From Felis catus (Eukaryota): a stretch of 64,000 nt of DNA. Position numbers and translations under genes: made by a program. The notes beneath the pieces were generated by a model. That model saw nothing but the letters and a program-made list of their open reading frames with translations, searched no databases and was not told where the DNA came from. Shown one piece after another: positions 1,867 through 38,963 of this stretch. Every line of letters starts with the position of its first letter. The first letter of the stretch is position 1. Location: positions 48,796,001 through 48,860,000 of the forward strand of contig NC_058382.1 of NCBI RefSeq assembly GCF_018350175.1. Direction: 5' to 3'.

Positions 1867-1981
1867 ATTTATTGCCTCGAACAGCATAAGCAAGCTTTAG
1901 TTCCGGATGAAATTTGCCCATCTGCTCAATCACTTTTCCCGTTTGAAGTGCCAACTCATATGTTGGGGAGAGGCATAAACA
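1867..1981 (-). CDS. DDX19A: DDX19A exon 7 (motif Ia: CLCLSPTYELALQ); gene continues beyond the window start
   Basis: 115 nt, CAG acceptor, GTGAGT donor. Confidence 0.96.
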
Positions 1982-2094
1982 CTGAACAAGGAAATCATAA
2001 AGGTTGAGTTTAAGAGAGTCTTTTAATAAAAGACAACAGGTGCTAATGCAACAAATATTCTTATATTATTATCACTTTTTAAAAAATGTTTTAT

Positions 2095-2142
<48 letters not shown>

Positions 2143-2592
2143 CAGAGAGAGAATCCCAAGCCGACTCCATGCTGTCAGCACAGAGACCAGCTCGGGCCTC
2201 GATCTCATGAACTGTGAGATCATGACCCGAACCAAAATCAAGAGTTGATGGTTAACTGACTGAGCCACCCAGTCACCCCTGATCTTACTACCATCTAAAA
2301 AGGCAGGGAACCACATCCTCTCCAACCAGGCCCACTTTTCAGCTATAGACCGAAGCCTTCAGCAGGGAGCCCTGGCTGGGTGAATGCCTTCAGAAGCCAC
2401 TGTTTAAAGCTGCTGTTTCTGAATGAACTCTACCTAGAGGCCTAGTACATGAACCTGCTCTGCCAGATCCACAGTCTGAGGCCCAGGAAACGTTCAGATC
2501 CCTTAAGGGGTGCCCTCACTAACCGCCCACCAGATAGCACTGTCTTTCCCAGGGCAGGCAAGCCAGGGCCATCAGGATCCCCCAACCCTCAC

Positions 2593-2695
2593 CTGGGGAT
2601 ATCTCTCTGCTGGTTCCACTCGGCTGAGCATGGCCAGGACGAAGGCGGCTGTTTTACCAGTACCTGACTGAGACTGAGCAATCAGGTTCTGTGGG
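2593..2695 (-). CDS. DDX19A: DDX19A exon 6 (Walker A: SQSGTGKT)
   Basis: 103 nt, CAG acceptor, GTGAGG donor. Confidence 0.96.
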
Positions 2696-4287
2696 CTGGA
2701 TCAGGAACAGAAAGGAAAATAATATTGGTTAAACACAATAAAGTACCAGAATGTTCTTTCTGGATGGTAGGAATACAGAATATTCTTCCTTTAATCCAAG
2801 TTTTCTGCATTGAGGACAATGATAAATTTTTTATATGATGTTAAAAAACTGCTTAAATATTAAGGGAAAAAAATGATTCTTTGAGATGGGTTTACACCAA
2901 GAATCCTCACTCTAGACTCCAGCACAGCCAGGGTGCCCTAGTTTTGTACCCCAGGGGCCGCATGAAAATTAACACTGCAGAGTAAAATCTGTGCCAAGGA
3001 AAATCCCTGAAGACATTTTCTGCCAAGCTGTAATGTGTCTCCAGCACTCGGCTCCCCGTCTGTTTCCTTTTCTTTTTTTTTTTTTTTAAATAATGTTTAT
3101 TTTTGAGAAAGTGTGAGCAGAAGCAGGGGAGAGTCAGAGAGAGAAGGAGACATAGAATCTGAAGATTCGAAGCACACTCCAGGATGTCAGCACAGAGGCC
3201 AGTGCAGGGCTTGAACCCACGAACTGTGGGATCATGACCTGAGCTGTAGTTGTAGGCTTAACCAACTGGGCCACCCAGGCGCCCCTCCCCTTTTCCCTTC
3301 TTTATGAAAATCCAAGACACCAAGTCAGGCAGATGCTTTAGAGGGAACTTTCACATTTTACTTCCTGTAACTCAGTCATGGAAATAGGTGGAATTTTTTG
3401 TCATTAAGCAAGAAAAATAATACAATTGAATGGGAAATGTTGCTCCATAAAGTAGGATACCAATTATCTACAGTTTAAAATATGTAAACAACTCTTAGAT
3501 TCTTAGGAATGTGTAGATATGTAGTAAAAGTATAAAGAAATGTAAGAGAATGATGACCTGTTTCAGGATGACATTACTTGGGTTGGGGAAGGGGATGTGA
3601 ATGCAGAGGGGTGCATGGGGGCTTCCACTGTCAACTAGATTTCTTGACAAGATAGGGTTACAGATGTTCTTGACACCATTTTTTGCAAGTTCCAAAAATT
3701 TCATACTAAAAAAAAATTTTTTTTTAACATTTATTCACTTTTGAGAGACAGAGACAGAGCACAAGTGGGGGAGGGGCAGAGAAAGAGGGAGATACAGAAT
3801 CTGAAACAGGCTCCAGGCTCTGAGCTGTCAGCACAGAGCCCAACACAGGGCTTGAACTCATGAACTTCGAGATCATGACCTGAGCTGAAGTCAGATGCTT
3901 AACCAGCTGAGCCACCCAGGTGCCCCCAAAATTTCCTATTTTTAAAAACCCTGTTTTAAAAAAATGCACAGAATAACATTAGCTTTATCTGTTTTTCATT
4001 TATTTTAAAGATTTTTATTTATTTTTTAAGTAACCCCTACAAACCAATGCGGGTTTGAACCCACACCACCAACTGAGCTAGCCAGGTGCCCCCATTAGTT
4101 TTTACTGCTAAGTGGGAAAGGCAGAAGCTGTACCAAATTCCATCTGACTCTCTGTACTTGCTCAAGCTGTTTCCCTGAGGAAAACATGCTGTCCCAAATG
4201 TCCCATCTTGTTCTCAAGAACAGTATGTTTTTGGTATAGGACATTAAACCAAATTCTGAAGAGGTGCACTGGGATCTGCATACTCAC

Positions 4288-4380
4288 GGCTCAGCAAGCA
4301 TCATGGGTAATGCATTCTCTTGTATCTTGGATGGTCGATTGAAGCCCATGGCATAGACTCCCTGGAGAAGCTGTGGTTTC
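4288..4380 (-). CDS. DDX19A: DDX19A exon 5 (Q motif: GFNRPSKIQENALPMMLAEP)
   Basis: 93 nt, TAG acceptor, GTGAGT donor; PMML is the DDX19A-type variant. Confidence 0.96.
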
Positions 4381-6736
4381 CTAGGAGGCCAGGGAGAGAA
4401 AGGATTGTTTCCTAGTTCAATTGTTTTAAAGGCCTAAATCTCTTTCCCTATATCTAGCAAAGAGTAACACTTCCTATCTCTGTCAGACATATCTTCCTAG
4501 GCCTTAAAAAATATTATCTAAAATGAAACCAAACCATCATCCTTCTCTCCTCAGTCTTAATCTACAACTATTAGACAATTCATAGAATACAGACAAGTTT
4601 TCTTTCTTGGAGAAATTCATGCTTTCAGCAGACCCCCACAAATATGATTGGTCTTGGATGGCAAATGTTCCCTGGATACTGCAAGAGTGGAATTTATTAA
4701 TTTGTATAAATTGTATAATTTGCATAAAATGAATTATAAAAGGCGTACCTAAAAATAAACACTGCTTAACTGTATCACTAAGATATAGAAATCCCTTTAG
4801 AAAACAAGATTCACGTTTAATTTCTTGGTGCAGATGTTAAAATGAACCACAGTCATTTTGTATTCCATGGTCCTTCCAAAGCCAGCTATACAAACACTCA
4901 GGACAATCAAGAGGTAAGAGAATTGATTTAGCCAGTTTCTGGTAAAGAGGAGTGTTCAATCACCTGTACTGAACTTCACGAATGCTCATATTTGGTTATT
5001 ATGTTTAGTCAAAATCAAGCATAGGAAAGCACCAGCTTATACAAGTAGCTACACAACAAATACAAATTAAAGTTGCTTTTTCATTGCATTTACAATAACC
5101 TCTCTGTTACCTCTACCACCGACAGGGTGTTCGACAAAAATCCCACCACACTATTTGTAAAGAAGAGCCAAACCAAGTCAAGCCTTCTGTTCTCTGAGCC
5201 TTCCCTGGAGTTAACAGGCTCTCTAAAAGGCACATTCGTCTGGCATATGTTGGTTCTCAGACACAAAGACATGTGAAAGCATAATCTTTGGTGTCTTCTG
5301 TTTAGAAGAAAAGGCTATGAAGCTCAACAGATTGTGATTTGGTTGCTAAGGAAACAAAGTCACAACTGAATGAAGATCCAAATGATCCAAGAGCTTCCAG
5401 CGGTTCATTATTTTCCTTTTATTTTGCAGATTAATTCAAAATTTTTAAGTACAAAACAAATATATTATATTAGGCAACTTAGGTTTTATTTTTTGTTTCT
5501 TCTAGCCAACAACTACTAAATCAGAGAGAGCTTGATTTTTCAGAAAGGACAATTCCTCACTGGTCAGACTGAGAGCACAAGTCCTTTAAATGAAAGGGGG
5601 TTTAAAAGCCATCTATACTTGGGGAAGCAAAACTGTCACTTCAGGAAACAAAAGAGCACATCTAGCCGTCCTGATATAGTTTACGAATAGAAGCAGAGAT
5701 GGCAGAATTGCTGAATGAAGCCCTCCATGGGAGAAATACAGAAAGAAAAGAATAATTTCCTGAAAACATTAAAAAACAACAACGCTTTAAAAAACTTGTT
5801 CTTAACTGTTACTTCATTAATGACTTGATTTGGTTTAAGTTAGCTCTTATATTTTAAGTGTCTCTTATTCTAAAGCAGTGGTAACAGTTGGCAGGAATGT
5901 GGCCCCTATTGGCCCACGGTGGGCATATTAAAGATTTTGCTGATAAAGGTAATTCCACCACTTTCTTATTCACCAGCTGCTTTCTGTCTATGATTCAGGT
6001 CCTGGCAGGCAGCAAGAACGGTGGTTATGTCTTGTGTTACTCATAACACCCAGCACAGTACCAGGTACCTAAACCAATGATTCATAAACATTTCTTTACT
6101 AATATATTGAAGTAAACAAAAAAATTGGTATGACCTTCCATAATTCTGCTTTTAAAATAAAGCGATATTGGAAGTCATTCTTAGCACAATGACATGAATA
6201 TGCTCCCTTACAGCTTAATTCTGGGTTCTGGATTGGTTTTTGTTTTGCATTCTGGAATACTGAAGACTGCTTTCCACTGTAGGTACTGGAAATCCTGCAA
6301 AGGCTCTTTTGATCGATTATATAAAAGCAGATAAACTGTTCTTAACCGTAAACCCTATAGTCTAACAAAAGGGCTTACCTAATAAGAAATGTTCCTGACA
6401 TCCAGAAATCACCTGTCAGCCAATATTTTATTGAAAGTTCTAAGAGCATAAAAGAAAAAAGACTTTCAGCTATGATGAATAAATCTGTGGCATTTAAAAA
6501 TCCCTCCCAAGAGGAGGAGAACTGGGTAGCCAAGAGACAAGGGTGGGAGGGAAACCGTCACTGTAAACTGTTTCATACTTTCTGACTTTTGAGTCATGTG
6601 AATTATCAAAGAAGCAAATACATTAAGATTCTTAAAAATAAAAGTAAAAAGTAAAATTCCCCAAAGATCTTGGAGATGCTAAGTTTTACAAAGGAGGGCC
6701 TGACAAGGAGCAGCTGTTCAAAGAACAAATACTCAC

Positions 6737-6872
6737 AGCCGAAGCTCCTCAAAGGACTTCACAGAGTAGAGCGGGGAACTTGGGTCCCGCTGCAGGACTT
6801 CCACTTGGTTCGTGTTATCGACAAGGTTGCTTCTGATCAGCTTGTTGAGTAAAGACTGGGCAGCTCTGTCCT
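6737..6872 (-). CDS. DDX19A: DDX19A exon 4 (EDRAAQSLLNKLIRSNL...SFEELRL)
   Basis: 136 nt, CAG acceptor, GTGAGT donor. Confidence 0.96.
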
Positions 6873-7446
6873 CTGTCCGGAAGAAACCAGCAGATTGTCT
6901 TCACGCTCGTTTGGCAAACTCACCCTCGTGAAATCTCTCTCCCCATCTCTGCACCAGCACCCAGGCGGCCAGGCTTGGCTGGAGAACAGTCACTCCCACC
7001 GGTCTCCCTTTAGAACGGTGACTGGGAAACCCAAAAGGGCTAAGCTGCCCTATTCGTCTTCATGCTTCTATTCTCCACTCATTCACTCTTCTCAGACCTC
7101 CACTTCTACCTCCTCCTCTCTTCTCAAACTTCTAATCCCTCACATCCTCACTCACCTGATGACCTCTCGTCTTCCTTCACAGAAAAGTACCAGTGATCAG
7201 AAACACTTCCCCATTCTGTCGTGACATTCCTATACATCTACCTGCATGTGCGCCCGTGTTCTCTACATTCCCTTTGGTAACCTGGGACGGACAGCCTGTG
7301 CTCCTAAGGCTAACCCCTCCACTGGTACGACAGGTCCCAGCCCCTCTTGCCCACAAGGATATTTCTCCTGACGCTGACTCTGTTTTGCGTGATCAGTTTC
7401 CTGTTCCACTGGAACATTCCCACCAGCATGTGAACACATTGTAACA

Positions 7447-9050
7447 TTTTTTTTTTTAATGTTTATTCATTTTTGAGAGCAAGAGTGAGAAAGGGACTGG
7501 GGGAGGGGCAAAGAGAGAGGGAGACACAGAATCCGAAGCAGGCTCTAGGCCGTTAGCACAGAGCCCGGCGCTGGGCTCTAACTTACAAATCACAAGATCA
7601 TGATCTGAGCAGAAGTTGGACCCTTAACCAACTGAGCCACCCAGGTGGCCCCAATATTTATATCTTCTTAATCAACTTATTACTTATATTTAACTACCTA
7701 CTTCTAAAATACTTCCTTCTTCTGGTTTCTGGATACCACCCTCTTGAGGGCACCTGGGTGGCTCAGCCGGTTAAGGGTCCGATTCCTGGCTTCAGCTCAA
7801 GTCATGATCTCATGGTCCACGAGATTGAGCTCAGCATCAGGCTCTGCGCTGACAGTGCGGAGCCTGCTTGGGATTCTCTCTCTCTCTCTGCCCCTCCCTC
7901 ACTTGCTCTCTCTCTCTCAAAATAAATTAAAAAAAAAAAAAAAAAAGGATACCACTCTCTTTCATTCTCCTTCTACCTCACTGACTGCTTCTTCTCAATC
8001 TCCTCTGTAATTCCTCCTCATCTCCTTAATCCAGTGCCTCTGGCTCCAGGAGGGCAAATCTTGGGTCATATTCTATTTCTTGGTACAAAGTTTTAAAGAC
8101 AAATTACCTTTCTCTTCTTCATCTGTTTTCTCTGCAGCGGCACTGGTTTTAATAACACCTACAAAAGAAAACAGTTATCATAGTAAGAAAGGCAAATTTC
8201 AAACCCACCCAAAAGGTGTGACAACATAAAAACTAAATCTTAGTTAGGTGATCAAAATGTAAATATTTGGCATTTCTTTATGTTTAATGGGTTTTTATTC
8301 CTAGAAAGCACACAAGAAAATTTCAACTTTCTAGGAATGTTGGCTGACTTCACAGTGGATCAGAATATGTCACCTCTGATTTGCTTATCCTATTTTAAAA
8401 TATACTATTATATTAGCAAACACAATCATACATAAGAAAGAAAACAGGTATTAAAAATTAAAAGCAAGAGGGGCACCTGGGTGGCTCAGTCGGTTGAGCG
8501 TCCGACTTCAGCTCAGGTCATGAACTCGCGGTTTGTGAGTTTGAGCCCCGCATCAGAGTCTGTGCTGACAGCTCGGATTCGGTGTCTCCCTCTCTCTCTG
8601 CCCCTCCCCTGCTCATGCTCTGTCTCTCTCTGTCTCTCATAAATAAATAAGTGTTAAAAATTTTTTTAAATAAAAAAATAAATAAAAGCAAGAGGTAAAA
8701 TGTTCACTTTTGGTGGATTACAGGATTGTAAACCTGCAGGATTAAGTATCAACTTAAAAACGATTATAGGGGCGCCTGGGTGGCTCAGTCTGTTAAGCAT
8801 CCAACTCTTGATTTTGGCTCGGGTCGTGATCCCAGGGTTGGGGAATTGAGCCCTGCTCAGCATGGAGCCTGCTTGGGATTCTTATTCTCTCTCATTCTCT
8901 CTCACTCTCTCTCTCTGTCTCTCTCTCTCTCTCTCTCCCCCTCCCTCCCTCCCTCTCCCTCTCTCCTCCTCTTCCTCTCTCTCCCTCTGTCCCTCTCCCT
9001 CACTCGTGTTCTCTCTCTCTCAAAACAAAACAAAATACAAAAAAAAAAAA
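7447..9050. mobile_element. Carnivore SINEs: ~7447-7652 (-), 7748-7946 (+), 8470-8680 (+), 8769-9050 (+)
   Basis: tRNA-derived head, (CT)n, A tail; TSD GGATACCACYCTCTT around the 7748 copy. Confidence 0.88.
8108..8158 (-). CDS. DDX19A: DDX19A exon 3 (VIKTSAAAEKTDEEEK)
   Basis: 51 nt, TAG acceptor, GTAATT donor; one codon shorter than the DDX19B exon. Confidence 0.95.
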
Positions 9051-9444
9051 CCCTTGCAAAATAACATATTTTAGCGAAAAACAAAAAACTAGGTACAAAA
9101 TAAATAGAAATCAGTAGTTTTCATAAATACAGACATATAATTGAAAAGTTCCCATTTATAACAGCAACTAAAATGATGAAATACTTCACCAAGAAATAAA
9201 ATTAATAAAATCAAATAAATACGCAAGATTTAAATGAAGAAAACTTTAAAACAATAAAATAATGCAAACAGTATAGCTAAAATGCCAATAGATCAATTAA
9301 AGTGGAATTCTAAGATATTCAATTAGCCTAAAAGAAGGCAGCAAAAGAAAGGAAGAGAAACTATGAGACAAACAAATCAAATAGTAAAACTGCTTAAGTA
9401 AACCTACCATGTCAACAATTATATTAAATGTAGATGGATAAGAA

Positions 9445-10530
9445 AAATAAATAAAAGGCATCCAAATTCAAAGGAAGAAAACTGTCAATATTTGCAGAAG
9501 ACATATATAAAAAACCCAAAGATGCCATCAAAAAACTGTTGGCACTAATAAATGAATTTAGTCAAGTTGCAGAATACAAAATCAATGCACAAAATCTGGT
9601 GTGTTTCTATACACTAATAATGAACTATCTGAAAGAGAAATTAAGAAAATAACCCTATTGGGGCGCCTGGGTGGCGCAGTCGGTTAAGCGTCCGACTTCA
9701 GCCAGGTCACGATCTCGCGGTCTGTGAGTTCGAGCCCCGCGTCGGGCTCTGGGCTGATGGCTCAGAGCCTGGAGCCTGTTTCCGATTCTGTGTCTCCCTC
9801 TCTCTCTGCCCTTCCCCCGTTCGTGCTCTGTCTCTCTCTGTCCCAAAAATAAATAAACGTTGAAAAAAAAATTAAAAAAAAAAGAAAAGAAAAGAAAATA
9901 ACCCTATTTACAACTGCATTAAAAAGAATTAAATACCTAGGAATAAATTTACCAAGGAGGTAGAAGACATGTATACTGAACATCATAAGACATTATTGAA
10001 AGAAACTGAAAACACAAACAAATAGGAAGGTTTTCCTTGCTCATGGATTGGAAGGGTACTGTTAAAATGTCCATTATTATCAAAAACACGAATCAATGCA
10101 CTCCCTGTGAAAATCCCAACAGTATTCTTCACAGAAATAGAACAATTTTAAAATTTGTACAGAACCACAAAAGACCCCAAACAGCCAAAGCAATCTTCAG
10201 AAAGAAAAACAAAGCTGGAGGCATCATGCTCCCCGACTTCAAACTAGATTACAAAACTGTATAATTAAAACAGTACGGTACTTGCATTAACAACAGACAC
10301 ATAAATCGATGGAACAGAACAGAGAGCTCAGAAATAAACCCACACATATTTGGTCAATTAATTTATGACAAAGGACCCAAGAATATACAACAGAGAAAGG
10401 ACAGTCTCTTTAATAAATGGTATTGGGAAAACGGGACAGCCACGTGTAAAAGAACAGAACTGGACCGCTATCTTAACCATACACAAAAATTAACTCAAAA
10501 TGGATTAAAGACTTGAATGTAAGATCTAAA
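9445..10530 (+). mobile_element. L1 ORF2 fragment (RT region onward), degenerate, interrupted by a SINE
   Basis: Reads LINEFSQVAEYKINAQ and [15 protein letters not shown]; frameshifted. Confidence 0.88.
9660..9891 (+). mobile_element. Young felid SINE (SINEC_Fc type)
   Basis: Near-consensus with CpGs retained; perfect 17-bp TSD AAGAAAATAACCCTATT (9643-9659, 9892-9908). Confidence 0.95.
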
Positions 10531-10532
10531 GC

Positions 10533-10658
10533 CTTCAGAAGGAAGGCTGACACCTTGGTCTCAGACTTCTGGCCTCAAGAACTAGGAGACAGTAAACTTC
10601 GGTTGTTTAAACCACTCAGTTTGTGATACTTGGCATGTCAGCCTACCAAACTAATAAA
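10533..10658 (+). mobile_element. MaLR (MLT1-like) LTR 3' fragment
   Basis: GCTGACACCTTGGTCTCAGACTTCTGGCCTC...CCACTCAGTTTGTG motif. Confidence 0.6.
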
Positions 10659-10975
10659 GACAGAGAGTGAGAACTGGGTAAATGACAGTCCAGAACAGAA
10701 AGGAAGCCTTTCACCTGTTTAATACTTTGAGTTTTGAACCCAGATTAACTTTTCAGAAATTAAATACAAAGTTTAAAGAAACACATCAAGCGAACAGTGG
10801 CAGGAGTTAGAAACTAGATAAACTCTGGAAAACTAATGTATCCTCTTCAGTAACGAAACTGAATTTACTGGCTCTCAAATACCTACTGTCATTCGCCAAA
10901 TACTATATGAAAACTCCTTTTCACACTGCAGCTACTACTGCAAAGCAGAAGAGCTAATAGTTACAAGTGACTCAC

Positions 10976-11024
10976 CATTGGTATCTGGTTTGACTTTTTC
11001 TTCCTTGATTTGCAAATTACTCAT
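10976..11024 (-). CDS. DDX19A: DDX19A exon 2 (MSNLQIKEEKVKPDTNG)
   Basis: 49 nt, CAG acceptor, GTGAGT donor, phase 0->1. Confidence 0.95.
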
Positions 11025-11398
11025 CTGAATGGAAATAAAAGGAAACAGAGTTAAGCAGAGGACCCAAAGGAAGTCCCTTAGCCAAGAGAAGTTCCCTAGT
11101 GAAAGTCCAGCAGAACTAGTTCAGCACCTTTACTCAGGGAGTTATCCTGCTCAAGCAGGAGTCCTAAAAGCTTGGGTGACGACATCATTTTGGGCAACTT
11201 CAAGAACCTCAAAAAGGAGAGTGGGGTGGACTAAACATAGTAGTTGGGGGGAAAAGTTTGACAACAGCCTCAAACCTCTAATTTTCTTCCAACTTATGCT
11301 CTTTCTAGAACATCTAACCTTCATTAAATGCCTTTGATAGCCTATCAATGGCAAACACACAGTTCCCTTGCAGATACACTGAAGAACAACACTATCCA

Positions 11399-14300
11399 GG
11401 GGCGCCTGGGTGGCTCAGTTGGTTAAGTGTCTGCCTCTCAATTTCGATTTCGGCTGAGATCATAATCCCACAGGTGAGTTCAAGCCCCACATTGGGGTCC
11501 ACGCTGACAGTATGGGGCCTGCTTGGGATTCTATCTTTCCCTCTCTCTGTGTCCTCCCCTGAGCTCTGTCCTCTCTCTTTCAAAAATACGTAAACTTAAA
11601 AAAAAAAAAAAAGTATCATCTAAGTATTTCAACTTTGTTGTTAGTCACGAAACCCACACTGTATTCATGCAACACTAAGCAAATAAATTACAGCCTTCTT
11701 TCTTGTCTTATCAACCCCCTCCACTACAAGTTAGGTAAAAAAAAAGTTATTTATTATGATCAAAGAACACACTCATGTTCCTGATTTAAAATATTTCAGG
11801 AGGCGCCTGGGTGGCTCAGTCGGTTAAGCGTCCGACTTAGGCTCAGGTCATGATCTCACGGTTTGTGAGTTCAAACACCACATTGTCGGGCTCTGTGCTG
11901 ACAGCTCAGAGCCTGGAGCCTGCTTCAGATTCTGCGTCTCCCTCTCTCTCTGCCTCTGTCCTGCTCATACTCTGTCTCTGTCTCTCAAAAAGTGAATAAA
12001 CGTTAACAAAATTTTTTTTTAATTTATCAGAAACCTGAACACAGGTTTTTTATTGATTTTGGCCACTAGTCCTGGTCAATGCAAACTTGCTTATAAGTTG
12101 CAGATTAAAGTGCAAGCAGAACAGTAATTTATACATTCATAATGAAGTCTCCAATCTCATGGGAATTATTTTCCCATGTTCAAAGTGTTGGTAAGAGTAA
12201 GGGTGTGACACAGAAGTGGTATTATAAAGGTGTGTTGTCAGGTTCTAAGGAGTACCCCAAATCAAGCCCTAGACCCCAAGCCCTGTCCCCAACAAGATCC
12301 CTGAACTATGCAATCATTCATTATCCTTATAATGACCACCAGTGTTTCCTGAGGGCATTGAGAACCATGTCTTCCACCATTCTCCCTTCCCTCAACTGAC
12401 CCTGCTCATGGTCTTTGGAAGTCCACCCTCACACTGTAGGGATATTTATCTGATCTCTTTAGAAACCAGGTCGTCCAGAGAAAAATCAGACCAACATACT
12501 ACTGGAGGTGGACACCCTTTACCTGAAGGCTAAGAGGAATGTTGGTACCTAACAGAAGGTATTTCATACTAGAACTTATCCACTGATTAACCTCATTTTT
12601 AGGATGAATTCACAGGGATTCACAGAAGAAGACTACTCTTGGGATGGGCTGAAAAACACAAATAAAACAGTCCAGAGTCCCCAGTCCAACCAAGTTGATT
12701 AGAGTGGTCTCAAAGCCTGACTGATGAGAAAGAAAACAATAACCAAATCTAATGTACTATAATTTGACAAAGAGATATGGTAACAAAAGATGCTTAGGGG
12801 ATAGTCAGATCTATGAATTTGTCAGGATTTATTCAGCTGCATTCAAAGGTAAAACTACCTGCAGACTAGTATTCCTGTCTTGAGAGGTAACTCCATCATG
12901 GGAAAGAGGCAGGCCAATTGACTCCCATTCTCCTTCATTCTGAATTCATCTTCACCAAGGAACCTTCCAATTATTAATCATGCATCCAACAGAAGGCAGC
13001 GTCCCTGACCCTGGACACAGGCTTTCAGTTATGATAGAAGCATCCCTTCTGTATCCAAATTAACAGTAGTTCCTGCAGGCACCTGGGTGGCTCAGTTGAT
13101 TAAGCATCTAACTTCAGCTCAGGTCATGATCTCACAGTTCATAGGTTCAGGCCCTGCGTGGGATTCTGACAGCTCGGAGCCTGGAGCCTGCTTCAGATTC
13201 TGTGTCTCCCTCTCTCTCTGCCCTTCCCCCACTGGCACTCTGGCTCTCAAAAATAGATAAAAAAAGTGTTAAAAAAAAAAAAAAAAGAGTAGCTCCTGAA
13301 GGGTGGCCAACCTTCCATCAATCCCAGAGTCCCTGATCTGTGGAGGGGTGAACTCTCTGGCACTCAAAGACACTTCAGAAAGGCTTCAAGATCTACCTCT
13401 ATGACAATTCTAATCGCAAAAGGGTCAAATTATGTCTCCAAAAGATTCTTAGGGTTGCCTTTGGTTTTTGGTTTTGGCTGATCAGGGGAAGAGAGAGAAA
13501 GATATTAAACTGGTCATACAACCAAAAGAGGCAGCTAAGGAAGCCATTTGTGTTGGAAGAGATGACAGTAACAAATGAACCGGCATCAGGTCCTTTCTAC
13601 TAATTCAAACTCTCAGAATCTTTTATTAGGGCTGCTAAAATTGCATCCAAACTAAACTCCCTGACATACCCCTCTTTCCCCTCCAAAACCAATTTTGTAT
13701 GCAAGGAAGACTCTGAAGACACACCTTTGCTCACATAAGCGTAAACCAAACAAAAGTCCTGTGTGTAAATATAAGATCTTTGTCTTTGTGTTTTCTCTGT
13801 CCTCGTCTCTGTCATTTCCATTTACTACCTGTACACTTGAGAGCACAGCCATATGATAACCTAATACTATGAATTAGTTATTAAACTAAGACACACAAGA
13901 CTACATGGAAATTTAAAAAAAGGGGGGGGGGGTGGAGGAGGGTCTTCCCCAGCTATCAGGAAGCAATATTTTCACACATTTATTTACATCAGCCTTCTGA
14001 GAAGTAGAGTGGTTAAAACCAGATGCCAAGTATGTTTAGGTCTATATGTACAATATTCATAATATCACAGCTAGATTAGAGTCATAGGTTTAAAAAAAAT
14101 TTGAGGGGTGCCTGGGTGGCTCAGGTGGTTAAATGTCCGACTCTCAATTTTGGCTCAGGTCTGTGCCAAGTGTGGAGCCTGCTTGGGATTCTCTCTCCCT
14201 CTCTCTCTGCGCCCCCCTCCCCACACACTGCTCACACTCTCTCTCAAAATAATAAACATTAAAACAAATTTTAATTCTCAGTAACTATCTTTTAGAAAAG

Positions 14301-14619
14301 ATCTTGTGTGAAGCAGTGGATTTTAAATGCTACGGTGCCAGAACCTCATCCTTTGTAATACTCTGATTTCTTTGTGGATAATAGCCAGTTTTATTTATTG
14401 TTAACACTTTATTTTATTTTTTAATGTTTATTTATTTTGAGAGGGAGAGGGAGAGTGCGAGCCGGGAGGGGCAGAGAGAAAGAGGGAGAGAATCCCAAGC
14501 AGGTTCCACACTGTCAGCACAGAGCGTGACATGGGACTCAGTCTCATGAACCATGAGACTACGACCTGAGCCAAAATCAAAAGTCCGACACACAACCCAC
14601 AGAGCCACCCAGGTGCCCC
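11399..14619. mobile_element. Carnivore SINEs: ~11399-11612, 11799-12010, 13078-13286, 14105-14265 (+); 14407-14619 (-)
   Basis: GGGGCGCCTGGGTGGCTCAG-type head, (CT)n, A tails. Confidence 0.88.
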
Positions 14620-14696
14620 TATAATGAGTTTCATTGCTTGCCCTGATTCTTCTTCTGAAGTCCAATGCCACAATTCCAAATGTGAGATACACACTC

Positions 14697-15158
14697 TGCA
14701 GAAAACAGTTAACACAGTTAACAGTTGCCTATCCTTAGAAAAACCAGCTCGCAAGGTTGGCCCCTGGTTGGCCCCTGGGAACTTGGACTTCAGAAGGGTT
14801 CCCACCATTCCCAGAACTGCTGAGGGGTTTGCTATACCTAAATTGTAAAAACATGTGATTTACGTTAAACATCCGCTTTCCTTCTGTAAGTCTGGAATTT
14901 TGGTACGTGCTAAGCAGAGGGTGACTTTGTGACAACTCTCCAATAAGAACCCTAAGAACTGAGTCTCTAATGAGCTTCCCTGACAATACTTCACATGTGT
15001 TGTTACAATTAGCTGGTATAGGACTTTAATTAAGCTGTGTGTAAATCCACCAGGAGAGGTGTAATAAATCAGAGCTGAGAGTACAGTTATGTGTTGGGTC
15101 CTATGAGTTCTCCCAGGAAATCACTGAACCTAGACAATTCCTGGGGACTCACAACACA
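14697..15158 (+). mobile_element. LTR, MER21-like
   Basis: TG...CA ends; recalled MER21-type motifs (GCAAGGTTGGCCC, GAGTCTCTAATGAGCTTCCCTG); AATAAA ~15063. Confidence 0.75.
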
Positions 15159-16499
15159 GGTACTTACCAAGATGTCCTCCTTGTCTAAAATTCAGAGACC
15201 TCCAAATCAAATCTGCCCATCTTCCCTCTTCTCTAGTCCTGTTATTAGCATTTTACTAATACCACCTCTGGGATGCCGCCTGCAAACAACAACCTTTGCC
15301 TTTTTCCTAAATCCCGCACATTATATCGCCACAATTCTCTCTTAAATCCATCTCTTCATCGTCACTTCCACCACCCAACAACATATGCCCTTCTCTGGAC
15401 TATTACAGTAACTTCCACACTGACTGGCTTTCCTGTAGACATCACTAACATTCTATGTGTTCAATAAATCTTGCCAGCTCTCAGATCTAATCTTGTCAGT
15501 ATCCTGAAAAATCCCCAAACCGACTAAGAAAAGTCTCTCCTCTTGAAGTTCTCAGTTGAGGTTGCAAAGTACACTCTATATTTTCTGTACAGCTTCTATT
15601 ACAACCCATACACTTAAGCTGCAGCAAAAATCAGTTCTGATTCTTGCTCTCTAGACAAGTTCAGCACTTTTGTGCATTTTCTCCTGAAATGTTATTCAAC
15701 TCTATCTTACATGACTCATTCTCTATTATCCATTTGAAACTTCTCCACAAGCAATTTCTTATTCCCTATTCATAAACGTCCTCTCTCTTTTCAGACATCA
15801 CTTACCGCATTATTCTTACCATTTTCACAGCATTTCCCACATTCTCACCTTCCCAACTAGACTGTAAAGATTCATCCTGTATTCCACTGGATTTAGACCA
15901 CAATATTTGCTGACAAACTCACAATCTTCCCAAGGCAATCAAGGCTGACTGCAGAAGAAATGTTAACTTAAGCATTAAAAAGTTACATAAGACTTCCAGA
16001 CGACCAGACAAAACTATTAAAATCAATAGTGAATTATCACTAAACAAACCTACGGTTACATATAAGAACAGAAAGCCAGTTTACACTAATTACCTTACAA
16101 TTGAATAGATCTTCATTTATAAAAGAACCAGGATGTGAAACTAAATATTCCTTTTAAACATCAACGAAACAATTTGTAGTCCCTCCCGCCAACATTTGCA
16201 GTAGACTGAAACACGAAATCTAAACCTGAATCTGTTATCCTGCAAAAAGCTACCAAATGCCAGCCACGTTAAGAAAAATCCAAAAACAAACAAACAAACA
16301 AAAAAGGGTTTAGCACCGATTCATCCGGAAAACAGATCAAAGAGAGAATCAGCATCTAAATTTTCCTGTGTCTACAATCCCCAGTGAGGAAGTGCAATAC
16401 AAGGAAAGAAAACATACAGAGCGGGAACAAATTTGCTACAGGACAAAAAAGTCTTTAACTGGCCCAGATGAATAGAACAAGCTTGACACTGGTCTCTAT

Positions 16500-16965
16500 C
16501 GCCCTAGGCGCAAATCAGGGCCACGGGATTCACCGCCGCAAAGTCTAGGGAGGTGTGGGCCACAACCCTTCCCAACCCGGGCAGCTCCCGGGGCTCGAAT
16601 CAGGGTCGGCTCGGGCCCCTGCTACGTTCGCCCCGCGAGAGCTGAAGCCACTGACCGACTTGACAGCCGCTTCCTGCTCGTCCACTGCCAGGGCCCACGA
16701 GTCGGTGGCCATGATGCGGGGAGCAGGGAGGCTGACTTTGGAAAAAATTCACCGCACCGCGCGCCAACACCTGCCCGGAGTCCACTATCTCCGCAAGAAC
16801 CGCCCCCACGCGGACCGGAAGCGGCGGTGCCAAAAGTGACGTCAGTTCCCGCCCGGCGCAAGACGTCACTATTCTGCGCCGCGCCGGTCGTGCGCCGACG
16901 TGCGTCTCCTTCGGACTTTCCAGGAGCAGCCTCGTGCTTTCTTGAAATCCCTAATCTCTGCGAAG
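16500..16965 (-). promoter_or_regulatory. DDX19A: DDX19A CpG-island promoter
   Basis: CpG-dense; ETS ACCGGAAG 16814-16821; full CRE TGACGTCA 16837-16844; second CRE-like site 16861-16868. Confidence 0.85.
16656..16712 (-). CDS. DDX19A: DDX19A coding exon 1 (MATDSWALAVDEQEAAVKS)
   Basis: ATG at 16712-16710, 57 nt, donor GTCAGT; AAVKS matches the DDX19A-type N-terminus; lies in a CpG island. Confidence 0.95.
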
Positions 16966-29335: not shown

Positions 29336-29397
29336 TCAGTTGGCTATTTTCTCAATCTCATCCAAATCATCTGTGTCCAATCTTTCTATTTTCTTAT
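29336..29397 (-). CDS. DDX19B: DDX19B exon 12 coding part (KKIERLDTDDLDEIEKIAN*)
   Basis: 62 nt ending in TGA; the 12 exons sum to 1440 nt (479 aa). Confidence 0.97.
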
Positions 29398-29783
29398 CTG
29401 GGGAAAAAAAGAGAATTCACAGAGATATCAACACGGGGCTATCATGAACACACACACCTAGGGAAGGGACAGCACAGCAGGGAGGGAGGAGGCAGACGGG
29501 TTTCTGCCTCCATGCCAAGCCTCTGGCCACAGCAAACTTTCATGAAACCCCACGGGCTCCTGGTGCCTGAGCACGGGACAGAGCCCTAGGCCCTTCAAGC
29601 CTGGCCAAGGGGGCGCTGTTGTTCGAGTTCCTGACCCGAACTCACCAGGTGTGCTCTTCGAGAACTTCCATATTGTAGGAAAGGAGGGGAATGTGACAAG
29701 GACAAAGGCCTCTCGAGGAGGCCCCAGGAGAACCTGCCCCTCTAAGGAAAGGGCCCTGGCAGGGGACACTCCCAGGCACTCAC

Positions 29784-29975
29784 TAAAATGCTCCTGGATT
29801 CTGTTCAGGATGTTCATGCTGTGCTTGCTGTCGACCATGTTCACTGCCAGGCCCCTCTTGCCAAAGCGGCCCGTGCGCCCGATCCGGTGCAGGTAGGTCT
29901 CGTTGTCCGGGTTCCCATCCTTGTCCACGGGAAGGTCAAAGTTGATGACGACAGATACCTGTTCAACATCAATAC
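29784..29975 (-). CDS. DDX19B: DDX19B exon 11 (motif [10 protein letters not shown])
   Basis: 192 nt, CAG acceptor, GTGAGT donor. Confidence 0.97.
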
Positions 29976-30461
29976 CTGCACGAAAGAGGGGTGGAGTCAG
30001 GACGGGAAACAAAAACCACCACCCACCAGGCGAGGCTGCCACACGCCAGCATCAGGTGGAGGAAGAGTCTGGGGCAGGCCAGCTCTGGGATTCGGGGACC
30101 GGGGGCACGCAGCAGAATCCAGAGGGAAAAACAGAACTCTGGCAGGTGCTAACAAAATTATGACCTCGCTAGAAGAGCCTCTGCTAGATACAAGAATCTG
30201 GAGATGCGGCCGAAACTTCACTAGGGGGCCGCAGGAGAGCAGGCACCATTCACTCTAAACCAGTCACTGCCTGTTTCCTTCCACCACATCAGGACTCCTG
30301 GCTTCTGTGAAAGTTCTCATCTGCTGGGGGAATCCAGCCTCTCCCAGAAAACAAAGTCAGCACCAACCCCAGCTGGACTCCCCCGAACCATCTGAGCGTC
30401 CCGTACGGGAGCCCTGCGCTCGCCATCCGGAGCCAGGCGAACAGGCACATTCTCTGCTCAC

Positions 30462-30624
30462 CGCGGGCACACACGTTGGTGGTCACCAGCACCTTCTCTT
30501 TGCCCTCTCGGAAGCGCTCGATCACCGCAGCCCTCTGCTCCACCATCATCTCGCCGCTCAGCAGAGCCACCTGGTGGCCTTCTTTGGAGAGCTCTGCTGC
30601 CAGCCAACTAGCCGTTTTGCGGGT
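30462..30624 (-). CDS. DDX19B: DDX19B exon 10 (TRKTASWL...TTNVCARG)
   Basis: 163 nt, CAG acceptor, GTGAGC donor. Confidence 0.97.
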
Positions 30625-31175
30625 CTGGAGTGAAAGGAATGGTTTTAAATGGAGATACCTGGAAAAATAAAAACAAAAACAAACCTGCCAAAAAGTGGCT
30701 TGTTTCCATTAAAATACGTGAAAGCCTGCTGAGTTCAGCCACCAGGGTAGGCTTACCAATTTTACAAAGACAATTTTAGCCATGTGAATTTTTTTTGGAT
30801 GAATTACTTAAATCATCTTAGTGTTCAGCTAGGAAGAGTGTGGTAGGAGCCAATATCTTCATTCTCAAATAGTCTATATTCTTAATGTTATATAATCATT
30901 TCATTGGATGTTATCTGGAGTTTTTCCCAAGGTATGTCTAAGAGGTGGGGCCAAAGAAAAGTTCAATTCTTCACAGTCTTTCCCTCATAACTCATTATAG
31001 TCTGAGGAGAATATGCCCTGGGGCAGGTGGAGGTGCTTCATCATTTCCTTTCTGGCCACACAGAGGACACCCAGTCCTCCTCAGCACTGAGGTGGAGCTG
31101 GCTGAAGGGAGGGCCAGGCACACCCTCCAGTGGAGCTCCTCCCCCGGCAGGCCTGCTGCTGCCACTGCTACTCAC

Positions 31176-31413
31176 GTGGCAGAAGATCATGGCCTGAGCA
31201 ATGGTGATGGCCCCGTAGAGGTTACACAAGGCCTGGAACTTCTCATCTCTGTTATTGCACAGGACGTAATACTGCTTGATGGTGTCCAACGTCTCCTCCT
31301 CACGCTTCAGTTTGATAATGTTTGGGTCTGGGACCACTTTCTGGGCAAATTTCCATACAGAGTCCTCAAAGGTGGCAGAGAAAAGCAGCATCTGGCAGTT
31401 CCTGGGCAGCATC
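31176..31413 (-). CDS. DDX19B: DDX19B exon 9 (SAT motif III)
   Basis: 238 nt, CAG acceptor, GTGAGT donor. Confidence 0.97.
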
Positions 31414-31772
31414 CTGCAAGGGAAGACCCAGGTATGTGGCATGACCCCGAGTCTTTCCCTGGAAGGAACAGAAGACAGCCACCCCAGGCTTGGATGCTCT
31501 ACACGCCGGGGAAAGAGGCAAAAGGGGGGAGGAGAACAGCAGGGAGGAGGCAAGAGCAGCCATGGGGCAGGGAGGGGGCTGGTGTTAGATTCCCTAAGTT
31601 TCCTTCCTCAACCCATGGTCAGCGCTGAGGAGCAAATGGCCTATCAAACAAATGCTTCTGGAAGCAGTACAGTAAAGAACCTGATAGGAGCAAGAAGAAG
31701 TGTTTGAAGTAAAAGGAGAAGATGCTGTAGATCAGGAGGCTGAGACGTTCCTCTTGGCTCAAGAGTTCCTAC

Positions 31773-31950
31773 CTCTGGATGCGGATGCTCTGGTCTTGGT
31801 GGCCCTGAGTAGCTATCATCACGTCAGCCTCATCCAGAACAAACACCTTGATCTTCTTAGGGTCAATGAACTTGAGCTTGGAGCACCAGTCCAGAACAGT
31901 CCCAGGGGTGCCAATGACAATGTGTTCACTGATCTTCTGACCTCTTTCCA
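31773..31950 (-). CDS. DDX19B: DDX19B exon 8 (GTPG; VLDEAD box)
   Basis: 178 nt, CAG acceptor, GTAGGA donor; ORF track 31769-31951. Confidence 0.97.
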
Positions 31951-34207
31951 CTGTGGAGACAAGATGTTTTCCGTGGGTATTTCCATGAAAAAGTCTGCTT
32001 TCCTCTCTGAGAAAAATGTAAAGCTATGATGTATTTTAATGCAACTGTTTTTATGTTTGCCTTACTGTTTTAAGGAAAGGTTATGTTATCACTACAGTAT
32101 TTAATAATGCTGAACAGATAAGGTAAGGATATACACAGTGAAAAGATGAAAACCTCTTCAGTAGTGTTCTTTTCCATTCTCTGTAGTCATCCAGTTGTCT
32201 TTCAAGGAGGCTCTGTCGTTATCTTTATTTCTTCTCTGTCAACATCATTCCCCCAGCCCAGGATGGCACTTCTCCCAAGCAGACTTTCACAGCACTCTCT
32301 TCAGTGCACTCTGTCCCTCAGCTACCTTAGCATCTACGTCAAACAAGCCGGTTGCCTCTACGCACTGTCTGTCCGGGTCAGTAAACAGGATTCATCATGA
32401 AAGGCTTTGCTTTCCCAAAGAAACACAAAATGCCTCTATTAGATAAAGTGCTTCCCCAGACAAGGCCTGGTGGACCATAGCATGTTCTTGACTGTGTGTG
32501 CAGTCTGGAACTTAGAAGATTAGGCTCTTCATTTTGAATTAGATGGCACTTATAATTTTTAGCCCTTTGATTACAGTCTTGACCAGACACATCAAGCTTC
32601 CTCTAAACAGTCAAAATTTTGCCCTAATGTGAATGTTGAGTAAATTCAAAGCCAACACATGCCCCTTCTTACTTCTGTTAAACAAACCAATTATAGCCCC
32701 CCACAAAAGTTATTCAGACTCCTCTGCCATTCTAACCCAAATTGAAAAATTTTAAATGTCTTATCATCTTTCACTAAATTTTATAATATTATTTACTTTT
32801 TAGAAACAATTTTAAGTTGGTATTAGGACATTGTACACTGAGTAGATTTCTGTAGTCACAGTTACAGGTTAGTGGTAAAGATTCACAGGACTTAGCCAAA
32901 CTTTCAACAAGACTTTTTTTAATTACTTAAATATTGTTAATTTGTTGTATAATAAAAGTAGGAAACCTGAATAAGGGGGGGGGGGGGGGAAGCTCCAAAC
33001 CAAAAAAAAACTCTTAAATACAGAGAACAAACTGGTGTTTGCTGGTGGAGAGGAGGTGGTGAGTGAGGGAAGGTGAAATAGATAGAGGGGTTATCTTTTA
33101 CATTTAATCCACTTATCTTGATAAGCATTGAGAAAAATAGAGAATTGTTGAATCACAGGGGTGCCTGGGTGGTTTGGTTGGCTAAACGTCTGACTTCAGC
33201 TCAGGTCATGATCCCAGGGTTTGTGAGTTCGAGCCCCACATTGGGCTCTGCACTGACAATGCAGAGCCTGCTTGGGATTTTCTCTCTCTCTTTCTCTCTG
33301 CCTCTCCCTCACTTGTGTGCTCTCTCTCAAAAATAAACTTAAAAAAAAAAAAGAATTGTTGAATCCTTATATTGTATACCTGAAACTAATAGCACTGTAT
33401 GTTAATTACAATCAATTAAAAAAAATGAAATGCCAGAGTTAATTGTTCATATTCTAGAACATTTTTTGTTCTTCTAATGATATTAAAAAGAAACTAGGCA
33501 ATTAAATCCAAAATGTGCAACATTTTATAAGCAACTGGTCTGGCCTGTTCAAAAAGTCAAATGTACTGGGGGAGGAGAAGATGTAGGAACTATTCTAGAT
33601 TGAAAGAGTGCATATCCACTAATTTGATCTTGGTTCAAAAACAAAGCAGCCACAAAGAAACACTTTTGGGGAAAAATAAAATGGACTAGATACCAGTTCT
33701 TAGAGAATCTGCTAACTCTCTTGTGATAAGGGTTTTGTGGGTATGCTGAAGAATGTCCTTATTATGAGATGCATGCTCAAGTATTTAGGAATAAAGATCC
33801 ACAACATCTGCAATATACTTTCAAATGGTTCCCCCCACCACACACACACATACAGATAAAGTAAATATGGCAAAGTGATGAGTTTTTGAATGTACGTAAA
33901 GGGCACGTGTGTTATCTTTATTATTTCACCTACTGTGTATGATTTGAAATTTTTAAAATGGAAGTTGTTAGGGGAGCCTAGGTAGCTCAGTCAGTTAAGT
34001 GTCCGACTTCAGCTCAGGTCATGATCTCACAGTTCATGAGTTTCAGCCCCGTGTCAGCTCAGAGCCTGCTTGGGATTCTCTCCTTCTTTCTCGCTCCCTG
34101 CCCAACCCCCTCACTTTTGTGCACGCTCTTTCTCTCAAAATAAATAAACTTTTAAATAAAATAGAAGTGGTTAGCCTAATGAATTAGAATCACATATTCA
34201 TACTCAC

Positions 34208-34322
34208 ATTTATTGCCTCGGACAGCATAAGCTAGCTTCAGTTCAGGGTAAAATTTGCCCATCTGTTCAATCACTTTTCCTGTTTGCAGGGCGAGCTCAT
34301 AAGTTGGGGAGAGGCACAGACA
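34208..34322 (-). CDS. DDX19B: DDX19B exon 7 (SPTYELALQ)
   Basis: 115 nt, CAG acceptor, GTGAGT donor. Confidence 0.96.
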
Positions 34323-34859
34323 CTGGCAGGGAAAGAGTGTACAGTGAGATCTCAAGGGCAGTGGGGAACTACCGTCAGGACTTAGTTATTCCTCCAGCTG
34401 ACGCTGAAGAAGGGTATGTAAATTAAAGTGCACACCATTTGATTTTTTAAGCTGCAAAGTCATAAGCTAGAATTCTGAAGGGTCAGAACTCTGGCTGGGT
34501 AAAGACCGTTGAAAATAGCTATTGGCCACAGGAATATAAAAACCCCCACATGAGCAAGGATCTGAAATTCCAGTTGGAGATTAGCTTCCTTTTCACTTAC
34601 TCAGAAAGTTCTCAGAACTTTCCAAAGGATGATACTTTCCTGCAAGTAGAGGTGCCAAGTCTGTCAGCAGTATCCCAGAACTGGCAAACCACGGAGAAAG
34701 AACAGGATGTGTGTGGCTACTAGAAAATCAACCATATTGCTTGTGCTCCACAAGGGGCTCTGGTTTATGTAAAAAGTAATAAGCACCTTGGCTTTTATTC
34801 CATCAAATGTAATTTCTAGCTACATGTTAGCAGAAAATCCAAATTTACCAAGCTCTTAC

Positions 34860-34962
34860 CTGGGGGTATCTATTTGCAGGTTCTACTTGGCTGAGCATGG
34901 CCAACACGAAGGCAGCTGTTTTACCAGTGCCAGACTGAGACTGGGCAATTAAGTTCTGTGGG
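34860..34962 (-). CDS. DDX19B: DDX19B exon 6 (Walker A SQSGTGKT)
   Basis: 103 nt, CAG acceptor, GTAAGA donor. Confidence 0.96.
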
Positions 34963-37159: not shown

Positions 37160-37326
37160 CCTCGTTTCTCAAAATGTGGTCTGAAACTAGCATCATCATA
37201 ATCACTTAGAAGCTTATTAGAAAAGATGAACTTTAGTCCCCACCTCAGATGGAGACTGAAATGAGAATCTGTATTTTAATAAATTCCTATGAGATTCATA
37301 TGCCTATGCAAGAGTGAAAAGCACTG
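37160..37326. mobile_element. MER5-like DNA transposon remnant
   Basis: GTTTCTCAAAATGTGGTC...AATCTGTATTTTAA...TGAAAAGCACTG. Confidence 0.55.
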
Positions 37327-38418
37327 CACCAGAAAACAACCTTGGTAATTACCCTATTCTGGTCTTTCAGAACACTGGTTTTTGCCTGTTATATTTGACA
37401 CAATAAATTTTATATATCCATCTAATGAAATCATAGTGTATATGAATGATAAATGTTTATTTATCAACACAGATGATCATCTAAATTTTCTTTTTTTATT
37501 GTGTTTCTAAAAAAACTTTTTTAAGGTTTATTTATTTTTGAGAGAGAGGGACAGAGCACAAGCGGGGGAGGGGCAAAGAGAGACAGGGAGACAGAGAGTC
37601 CAAAGCAGGCTCCAGGCCCTGAGCTGTCAGTGCAGAGCCTGATGCAGAGCTTGATCTCATGACCCTAAGATCATTACCTGAGCCAAAATCAAGAGTTAGA
37701 CGCTTAACCAACTGAGCCACCCAGGTGCCCCTAATTAAGTTTTTAAAAAGCATTTGAAGATTTTATATGGTTCCATTTTTTTAAAAAGGTATAGGGGCAC
37801 CTGGTGGCTCAGTTAATTGAGTGTCTGTTGTTTCAGCTCATGTCACAATCTCATGGTCACAGGATCAAGCCCCTCTGAGGTTTTGCACTAGGTGTGAAGC
37901 CTGCTTGGGACTTGGGATTCTCTCTCTTCTCCCCCTTTACCCCTTACCCAACTGCACACATGATAAAATAAAAAATAAAGTAGCTATTAAAAAAAAAAAG
38001 GTATGGGACGCCTTGGTGGCTTAGTCGCTTAAGCGTCTGGCTCTTGATCTAAACTCAGGTCACGATCTCACGGTTCATGAGACTGAGTCCCACATCAGGC
38101 TCTGCGCTGACAGCGTGGAGCCTGCTAGGGATTCTCTCCCCCCCCCCCACCTCTGCCCCTCCCCTGCTCGTGCACCTCTCTCTCAAATAAATAAACATTA
38201 AAAAAAAAGGTATAGCTATAGATATGTAAGTTTACATAAAAAAGTCTAGAAGTCTCTAAATGTTAGTGAGGGGTGGAGACTACAAATGATTTTTATTTTT
38301 CCTTGTTTTCTAGCTTTTCTAAAATAAGCATGTATTACTAGTATAGTTTTAAAATAATAATATGATTTTTAAAAAATGGAATATTAAAAATGGGATAGAG
38401 TTGTATCAGGACACATAC

Positions 38419-38511
38419 GGCTCAGCAAGCATCAAAGGCAATGCATTCTCTTGTATCTTGGATGGACGGTTGAAGCCCATGGCATAGACTCCCTGGAGAA
38501 GCTGTGGTTTC
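38419..38511 (-). CDS. DDX19B: DDX19B exon 5 (Q motif; ENALPLMLAEP)
   Basis: 93 nt, TAG acceptor, GTATGT donor. Confidence 0.96.
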
Positions 38512-38827: not shown

Positions 38828-38963
38828 AGCCGAAGCTCCTCAAAGGACTTCACAGAGTAGAGCGGGGAACTTGGGTCCCGCTGCAGGACTTCCACTTGGT
38901 TCGTGTTATCGACAAGGTTGCTTCTGATCAGCTTGTTGAGTAAAGACTGGGCAGCTCTGTCTT
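38828..38963 (-). CDS. DDX19B: DDX19B exon 4
   Basis: 136 nt, CAG acceptor, GTGAGT donor. Confidence 0.96.

What the first reader, a model, noticed from the sequence alone, without database searches (positions are those of the whole stretch)
6724..6870. 147-bp perfect identity between DDX19A and DDX19B over exon 4: likely gene-conversion tract
Seen: 6724-6870 equals 38815-38961 base for base, including all synonymous sites and 13 intronic nt past the donor. Exon 4 differs at 1/136 nt, whereas by hand count exon 6 differs at 14/103 and exon 7 at 15/115, and the introns carry different repeats. Inference: an old duplication with recent, local homogenisation of the exon encoding the N-terminal regulatory helix region. 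Strong nucleotide-level constraint (RNA element) or an assembly collapse are alternatives.
Basis: partly seen in the sequence, partly recalled or inferred. Interest (0 to 1): 0.72.

Follow-up and report, generated by a model that had tools for sequence, protein, structure and literature searches.

The report
Cat DDX19A/B exon-4 gene conversion
Two neighbouring copies of an mRNA-export gene in a cat genome have kept one exon identical by copying DNA between them, an oddity already reported for this same exon in other mammals.

Summary
Observation confirmed: 6724-6870 equals 38815-38961, and 147 bp is the maximal exact match. Exon 4 differs at 1/136 nt, against 14/103 and 15/115 in exons 6-7; synonymous-differing codons are 1/45 vs 38/134, p=5.5e-5. 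The window is a cat-family DDX19A/DDX19B pair.

Constraint does not explain it. Against a single-copy bird-type orthologue, exon 4 differs at 20/42 synonymous codons, like exons 5-7 (42/94, p=0.85). No RNA structure was found.

Both cat copies carry Ser at residue 84/85. Lynx, puma, lion and tiger DDX19B and tiger and jaguar DDX19A carry Asn. This points to a conversion within roughly the last 7 My, perhaps A to B.

The result is already in print. Carson and Scherer 2009 class DDX19A/B 'exons 4 & 8-12' as concerted in ten mammals, cat not included. New but minor: the cat case, a dating marker, and apparent escape in bats. Read-level and nucleotide-level mammalian tests could not be run.

The parts
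6724..6870 (-). Identical tract, DDX19A copy (exon 4 nt 3-136 plus 13 nt of intron 4)
38815..38961 (-). Identical tract, DDX19B copy
6737..6872 (-). DDX19A exon 4, 136 nt; encodes the auto-inhibitory helix and mobile loop
   Evidence: residue ranges from PMC5998080 passages; match to human DDX19B 55-98
38828..38963 (-). DDX19B exon 4, 136 nt
6778..6780 (-). Marker Ser codon in DDX19A (residue 84); Asn in tiger, jaguar and dog DDX19A
38869..38871 (-). Marker Ser codon in DDX19B (residue 85); Asn in lynx, puma, lion, tiger, dog and human DDX19B; the only difference from puma DDX19B in 448 residues
6871..6892 (-). Imperfect homology continuing over the exon 4 acceptor into intron 3 (partner 38962-38983; 5 mismatches in 22 nt)
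4288..4380 (-). DDX19A exon 5 (partner 38419-38511); 5/93 differences, first 42 nt identical, so the spliced identical run is 176 nt
38978..39054 (-). 45-nt A-rich insert between 16-nt direct repeats (retroposon tail with target-site duplication, inferred) 14 nt upstream of DDX19B exon 4, near the upstream end of the homology
1867..16712 (-). DDX19A coding exons 1-7 (exons 8-12 lie beyond the window's left edge)
29336..48234 (-). DDX19B coding exons 1-12, 1440 nt, 479 aa

Best explanation
Recurrent interlocus (non-allelic) DNA gene conversion between the tandem, directly oriented paralogues DDX19A and DDX19B, 32,091 bp apart. Purifying selection keeps the exon 4 peptide almost invariant, which keeps the two exons similar enough to pair (inferred). 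Double-strand-break repair then occasionally copies about 150 bp from one copy onto the other and erases synonymous differences (mechanism from established knowledge). The latest event in this lineage came after the split from lynx and puma (about 7 MYA, PMC4084570 passage) and carried an Asn-to-Ser change, so both copies now read Ser. Shown: identity, exon-specific loss of synonymous divergence, no such constraint against an outgroup, shared derived residue. Inferred: date (about 0.75) and direction A to B (about 0.55).
For: Identity and statistics. Outgroup L001, a single-copy gene whose exon 4 peptide is the bird/turtle type: exon 4 differs from cat at 20/42 synonymous codons vs 42/94 in exons 5-7, p=0.85, while A vs B is 0/44 vs 25/94, p=2.6e-5. 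Felid marker: Ser in 1 of 5 felid DDX19B entries (cat) and 1 of 3 DDX19A entries (Felinae n=2, cat representative). Of 61 A-type entries only 2 have Ser (cat, pika), and in both species the B-type also has Ser, while rabbit B has Asn. Published: the concerted tree is labelled 'Exons 4 & 8-12' and the divergent tree 'Exons 1-3 & 5-7' for ten mammals (PMC2720389 Additional file 5). A 147-bp tract is of the same order as the 250-bp mean non-allelic tract in humans (10.1101/135152 abstract).
Against: No mammalian orthologous DNA could be obtained, so the direct test was not made. The 2009 GENECONV table lists only exons 8-12, and its concerted tree pools exon 4 with five other exons. Asn-to-Ser recurs at this site (deer, voles, Apodemus, elephant shrew, bilby), so parallel change is possible: 1-4% under assumed, unmeasured rates. 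No GC-bias signature specific to conversion: GC3 is 30/44 in cat exon 4 but 32/44 in the single-copy outgroup. Against the fish-like L002, exon 4 is somewhat less diverged than exons 5-7 (15/40 vs 51/86 for B, p=0.034; 15/40 vs 47/84 for A, p=0.083). The homology island (169 bp) is shorter than the roughly 200-bp minimal efficient segment quoted for rodents (PMC3924818). Bats keep Lys in A and Asn in B, so homogenisation is not universal.
Confidence: 0.86

Rival explanations
1. Mammal-specific nucleotide constraint (splicing or RNA element) holds both exons near the ancestral sequence, and the shared Ser arose twice.
For: Mild excess conservation against the fish-like outgroup (p=0.034 for B). 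Donor and acceptor flanks are conserved. The Asn-to-Ser change is recurrent.
Against: 20/42 synonymous differences to the bird-type orthologue. Folding z=+1.16, with 178 of 200 shuffles folding as well. No Rfam match in the exon. Close felid orthologues differ inside the tract while the old paralogues do not.
Confidence: 0.05
2. RNA- or cDNA-templated conversion: a reverse transcript of one paralogue repaired the other, homogenising exon 4 and the first 42 nt of exon 5, which are contiguous in the mRNA.
For: The spliced identical run is 176 nt across the exon 4-5 junction; 0 of 20000 shuffles reach it. The introns do not align.
Against: Identity continues 13 nt into intron 4, and intron 4 is present in both genes. 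Exon 5 is also the least diverged exon against the bird-type outgroup (9/27), so its 5' identity may be constraint or chance. The shuffle result is driven by exon 4 itself.
Confidence: 0.05
3. Assembly or polishing artefact: reads from one exon 4 overwrote the other.
For: No read-level check was possible. The matching Felis catus database proteins may come from the same assembly, so they are not independent.
Against: The tract is short with unique flanks. Exons 5-7, similar enough to cross-map, keep their differences. The same exon is reported as concerted in ten other species.
Confidence: 0.04

Closest known systems
Concerted (mosaic) evolution of DDX19A/DDX19B, Carson and Scherer 2009 (PMC2720389)
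   Same: Same gene pair, same direct tandem layout, same exon: exon 4 is in the concerted set, exons 1-3 and 5-7 in the divergent set. ORF of 1440 nt, and a 3-nt shorter exon 3 in A.
   Different: Cat was not among the DDX19 species. Exon 4 was not a GENECONV-positive fragment there. The text I saw gives no date or direction for exon 4 and includes no bats.
Long-lived converting mammalian pairs BMP8A/B and TUBG1/2 (same paper); CCR2/CCR5, TLR1/TLR6, EMR2/CD97/EMR3 as cited there
   Same: Two-copy pairs with mosaic tracts homogenised in many lineages.
   Different: The tracts that defined those pairs in the 2009 screen span exons and their introns. The exon 4 tract is an isolated island of under 170 bp between unalignable introns.
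Non-allelic gene conversion in general (10.1101/135152; PMC3924818)
   Same: Short tract, close tandem paralogues, possible eventual escape as copies diverge (bats may be such a case).
   Different: No GC-bias signal could be assigned to conversion in exon 4. The island is shorter than the quoted 200-bp efficient minimum.

Membership tests
Interlocus gene conversion / concerted evolution | Paralogues more alike than their age allows, over a bounded tract | tested here: met
   0/44 synonymous-differing codons in the tract vs 25/94 in exons 5-7; shuffles
Interlocus gene conversion / concerted evolution | The segment is free to diverge between species | tested here: met
   20/42 against the bird-type orthologue, same as exons 5-7. 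Non-mammalian outgroups only.
Interlocus gene conversion / concerted evolution | Species-specific derived states shared by both paralogues | tested here: met
   One amino-acid marker only: Ser in cat A and B, Asn in other felid entries; also pika
Interlocus gene conversion / concerted evolution | Exon-4-only nucleotide tree groups by species | not testable with these tools
   No mammalian DNA obtained. The published tree pools exon 4 with exons 8-12.
Interlocus gene conversion / concerted evolution | Constant copy number, old duplication | tested here: met
   Two copies in the window with unalignable introns; A and B types across placental mammals; age from PMC2720389
Interlocus gene conversion / concerted evolution | Raised GC3 from biased conversion (supporting feature, not required) | tested here: inconclusive
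   30/44 vs 60/131 in divergent exons (p=0.014), but 32/44 in the single-copy outgroup
Ultraconserved exon / conserved RNA element | Near-zero synonymous divergence between distant orthologues | tested here: not met
   26/136 and 25/136 nt differences to L001 and L002; not tested within mammals
Ultraconserved exon / conserved RNA element | Stable or known RNA structure | tested here: not met
   z=+1.16; Rfam gave 1 match in the window, a marginal tRNA-like hit at 51626-51710
DDX19 (Dbp5) DEAD-box helicases | DEAD and Helicase_C domains, N-terminal auto-inhibitory helix | tested here: met
   PF00270 and PF00271; exon 4 peptide matches human DDX19B 55-98 at 43 of 44 residues

The most novel reading that the evidence does not exclude
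An isolated exon of under 170 bp, below the usual efficient pairing length and between unalignable introns, has gone on converting for more than 100 My because selection favours identical auto-inhibition modules (helix plus mobile loop) in DDX19A and DDX19B. Cat (under about 7 My, A to B) and pika record independent recent events. Bats have escaped: A has Lys and B Asn in 3 of 3 species with both copies retrieved, with 2-4 amino-acid differences in the two pairs compared in full. That would be a natural experiment on why this tract persists, which the 2009 paper left open.
Probability: 0.2. Interest if true: 0.55.

Novelty: already known. Interest (0 to 1): 0.22.

Why it matters
The main claim is a correct rediscovery, so it matters little on its own. 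The cat case adds exon-4-specific evidence that the 2009 GENECONV run did not give. It shows conversion was probably active within the last several million years, and it ties the tract to a functional module (auto-inhibitory helix and mobile loop) described in later structural work. Practical point: reads, primers and guides in exon 4 cannot tell the two cat genes apart, and the shared exon is a possible site of chimeric gene models or of deletion by unequal recombination.

Tried and rejected
Whole-genome search for retrocopies or further copies: no genome is held for this window. Cluster member look-up to name the second Felinae member of P0021: this query could not be made, so direction stays inferred. 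Sequencing runs with a long-read filter: none was listed; this is no evidence either way, and no reads were laid. Mammalian DNA in public contigs: of 80 metagenome loci, 2 were vertebrate-like, neither mammalian; 0 of 46 viral and 0 of 47 prokaryote-genome candidates were confirmed. GC3 as a sign of biased conversion: rejected because the outgroup is as high. The exon 8-12 GC3 values used wrong exon boundaries and were replaced. RNA element: not supported. Age from identity alone: too loose, with a 95% upper bound of 20-40 My under assumed rates. Earlier scan findings: none. The PAIP1 preprint's N-terminal motif (residues 6-14) lies in exon 1, not exon 4.

Full report
Observation. The stretch 6724-6870 is identical to 38815-38961, and the match ends at once on both sides. 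Mapping splice sites gave seven exon pairs on the minus strand. DDX19B is complete in the window (12 exons, 1440 nt, one terminal stop). DDX19A exons 8-12 lie off the left edge. Differences per exon are 9/57, 9/49, 10/51, 1/136, 5/93, 14/103 and 15/115. The one exon 4 difference is synonymous and outside the tract. Synonymous-differing codons are 1/45 in exon 4 against 38/134 elsewhere (p=5.5e-5). Shuffling codons gives a run of 134 identical bases in 0 of 20000 trials over exons 1-7 and 3 of 20000 over exons 4-7. Introns 2, 3, 4 and 6 were aligned; none beats shuffles except a borderline 48-nt piece of intron 3. Introns 1 and 5 were covered only by the self-BLAST, which gave one 105-nt, 74% hit between sequence upstream of DDX19A and DDX19B intron 1.

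Organism. The window's DDX19B without exon 5 is identical to a Felis catus database protein at 448 of 448 residues. Its DDX19A part is identical at 170 of 170 to an entry labelled Felinae, two members, with a cat representative. The abundant SINEs look like carnivore CanSINEs (recalled, not tested). So this is the domestic cat or a very close relative.

What is in print. One paper holds DDX19A, DDX19B and gene conversion: Carson and Scherer 2009, PMC2720389. I read the outline, parts 1-5 of 7 of the text (through Methods, the rest being references), and the text layers of Additional files 4, 5 and 8. I could not see the figures themselves or the five .doc supplements, and did not open Additional files 1-2. 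Files 3 and 6 hold the sliding-window description and per-region identities and may say more about exon 4. The main text never names exon 4 and its GENECONV table lists exons 8-12 only. Additional file 5, however, labels the concerted tree 'Exons 4 & 8-12' and the divergent tree 'Exons 1-3 & 5-7'. It covers human, chimpanzee, orangutan, macaque, mouse, rat, cow, horse, dog and opossum, with each non-ape species' two copies listed next to each other (text order only, branches not visible). Cat appears only in the TUBG panels. Searches for the cat case or for exon 4 by name found nothing further (listings only).

Constraint or conversion. No mammalian DNA could be had. Two of 80 metagenome loci were vertebrate-like genes with the same exon structure. 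L001 has the exon 4 peptide type of birds and turtle; L002 is more distant and I take it as fish-like (inference). Cat exon 4 differs from L001 at 20 of 42 synonymous codons, no fewer than exons 5-7 (42 of 94, p=0.85). The cat paralogues differ at 0 of 44 against 25 of 94. Against L002, exon 4 is somewhat better conserved (15/40 vs 51/86 for B, p=0.034; 15/40 vs 47/84 for A, p=0.083), a small point for constraint. The exon folds worse than 178 of 200 shuffles and has no Rfam match. Constraint arising only in mammals is not excluded by these outgroups.

A protein marker. Three searches returned 189 proteins (each lists only the best 120 of 486-547 hits). At residue 85 of DDX19B (84 of DDX19A), in the mobile loop, human has Asn, as do 93 B-type and 50 A-type entries. 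Both window copies have Ser, with the same codon. Among felid entries, DDX19B has Ser in cat and Asn in lynx, puma, lion and tiger; DDX19A has Ser in the Felinae entry and Asn in tiger and jaguar. Puma DDX19B differs from the window's at this residue alone. A derived state shared by two copies more than 100 My old, and absent from relatives about 7 My away (PMC4084570, passage), is what conversion predicts.

How far the marker goes. In 15 pairs picked by hand where both copies were retrieved (one pair is tiger A with lion B), 11 are Asn/Asn, 2 Ser/Ser (cat, pika) and 2 Lys/Asn (two bats). Myotis davidii, not in that script, is also Lys/Asn. Ser also occurs in B-type entries of deer, voles, Apodemus, elephant shrew and a bilby entry, for which no A copy was retrieved. 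The change is therefore recurrent; a rough estimate with assumed rates puts an independent second hit at 1-4%.

Direction is inferred only. The two-member Felinae DDX19A entry is listed from UniRef alone, and no separate lynx A isoform appeared. This suggests lynx is the second member, giving lynx A = Ser and B = Asn and hence A to B in cat. The member list could not be retrieved.

Mechanism. Best reading: recurrent non-allelic DNA conversion, kept going because selection on the peptide preserves pairing homology. Exon 4 encodes the auto-inhibitory helix (54-67) and mobile loop (68-91) of DDX19 (PMC5998080, passages). The tract length suits the 250-bp mean for human non-allelic conversion (10.1101/135152, abstract). 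The 169-bp island is under the roughly 200-bp efficient minimum, which that review says does not rule out shorter substrates (PMC3924818, passages). GC3 is high in exon 4 (30/44) and in exons 8-12 (185/262) against 60/131 in the divergent exons, but the single-copy outgroup is as high in exon 4 (32/44), so GC gives no support. The 13 intronic bases favour a DNA template, modestly, since exon 7 shares 8. The 176-nt spliced run across exons 4-5 leaves a small chance of an RNA template. An assembly artefact could not be tested with reads, and the matching cat proteins may share the assembly, but the published pattern in ten species makes it unlikely. A 16-nt target-site duplication around a 45-nt A-rich insert sits 14 nt upstream of DDX19B exon 4, near where homology ends.

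Verdict. The additions are the cat instance, a marker that dates the last event to about 7 My or less, a second probable event in pika, and apparent escape in bats. PMC4691742 and 10.64898/2026.07.31.742013 were seen as passages and do not bear on the verdict. Interest 0.22.

Noticed in passing
window 38978-39054: 45-nt A-rich insert flanked by 16-nt direct repeats, 14 nt upstream of the DDX19B exon 4 acceptor; looks like a severely truncated retroposon tail in the polypyrimidine region.
   Followed up: partly
window 4339-4380 and 38470-38511: First 42 nt of exon 5 are identical between the paralogues, with all 5 differences in the last 51 nt; possibly a second small tract, or constraint.
   Followed up: partly
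proteins P0121, P0124, P0125, P0127, P0129-P0132, P0154, P0158, P0170: Bat DDX19A carries Lys and bat DDX19B Asn at the marker residue, with further exon 4 differences: exon 4 seems to have escaped homogenisation in bats.
   Followed up: partly
proteins P0163, P0164, P0018, P0094: Database proteins with a DDX19B-type N-terminus and DDX19A-type exons 5-7 or 6: read-through transcripts or gene-model or assembly switches at the shared exon 4.
   Followed up: no
window 4288-4380 and 38419-38511: Exon 5 (93 nt, in frame) is skipped in many annotated 447/448-aa isoforms of both genes across mammals and birds.
   Followed up: no
window 16640-16655 and 48162-48177: Exon 1 donor flanks of the two genes are alike over about 16 nt with a one-base shift, and DDX19A uses a GTCAGT donor.
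   Followed up: no
window about 50430-50560, minus strand: Probable alternative upstream first exon of DDX19B; its translation resembles the N-termini of annotated 453-aa isoforms.
   Followed up: partly
window 54001-54500 and 60948-61109, plus strand: CpG island, and an exon matching alanyl-tRNA synthetase (PF01411), consistent with AARS1 head-to-head with DDX19B (gene name recalled).
   Followed up: partly
window 29336-31950: DDX19B introns 8, 10 and 11 are GC-rich (0.53-0.58; intron 9 0.44) against 0.31-0.42 for introns 1-7, in line with the published GC rise in the converting block.
   Followed up: no
window 51626-51710: Marginal Rfam tRNA match (29.2 bits, cut-off 29) overlapping a SINE copy, most likely its tRNA-derived head.
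   Followed up: no
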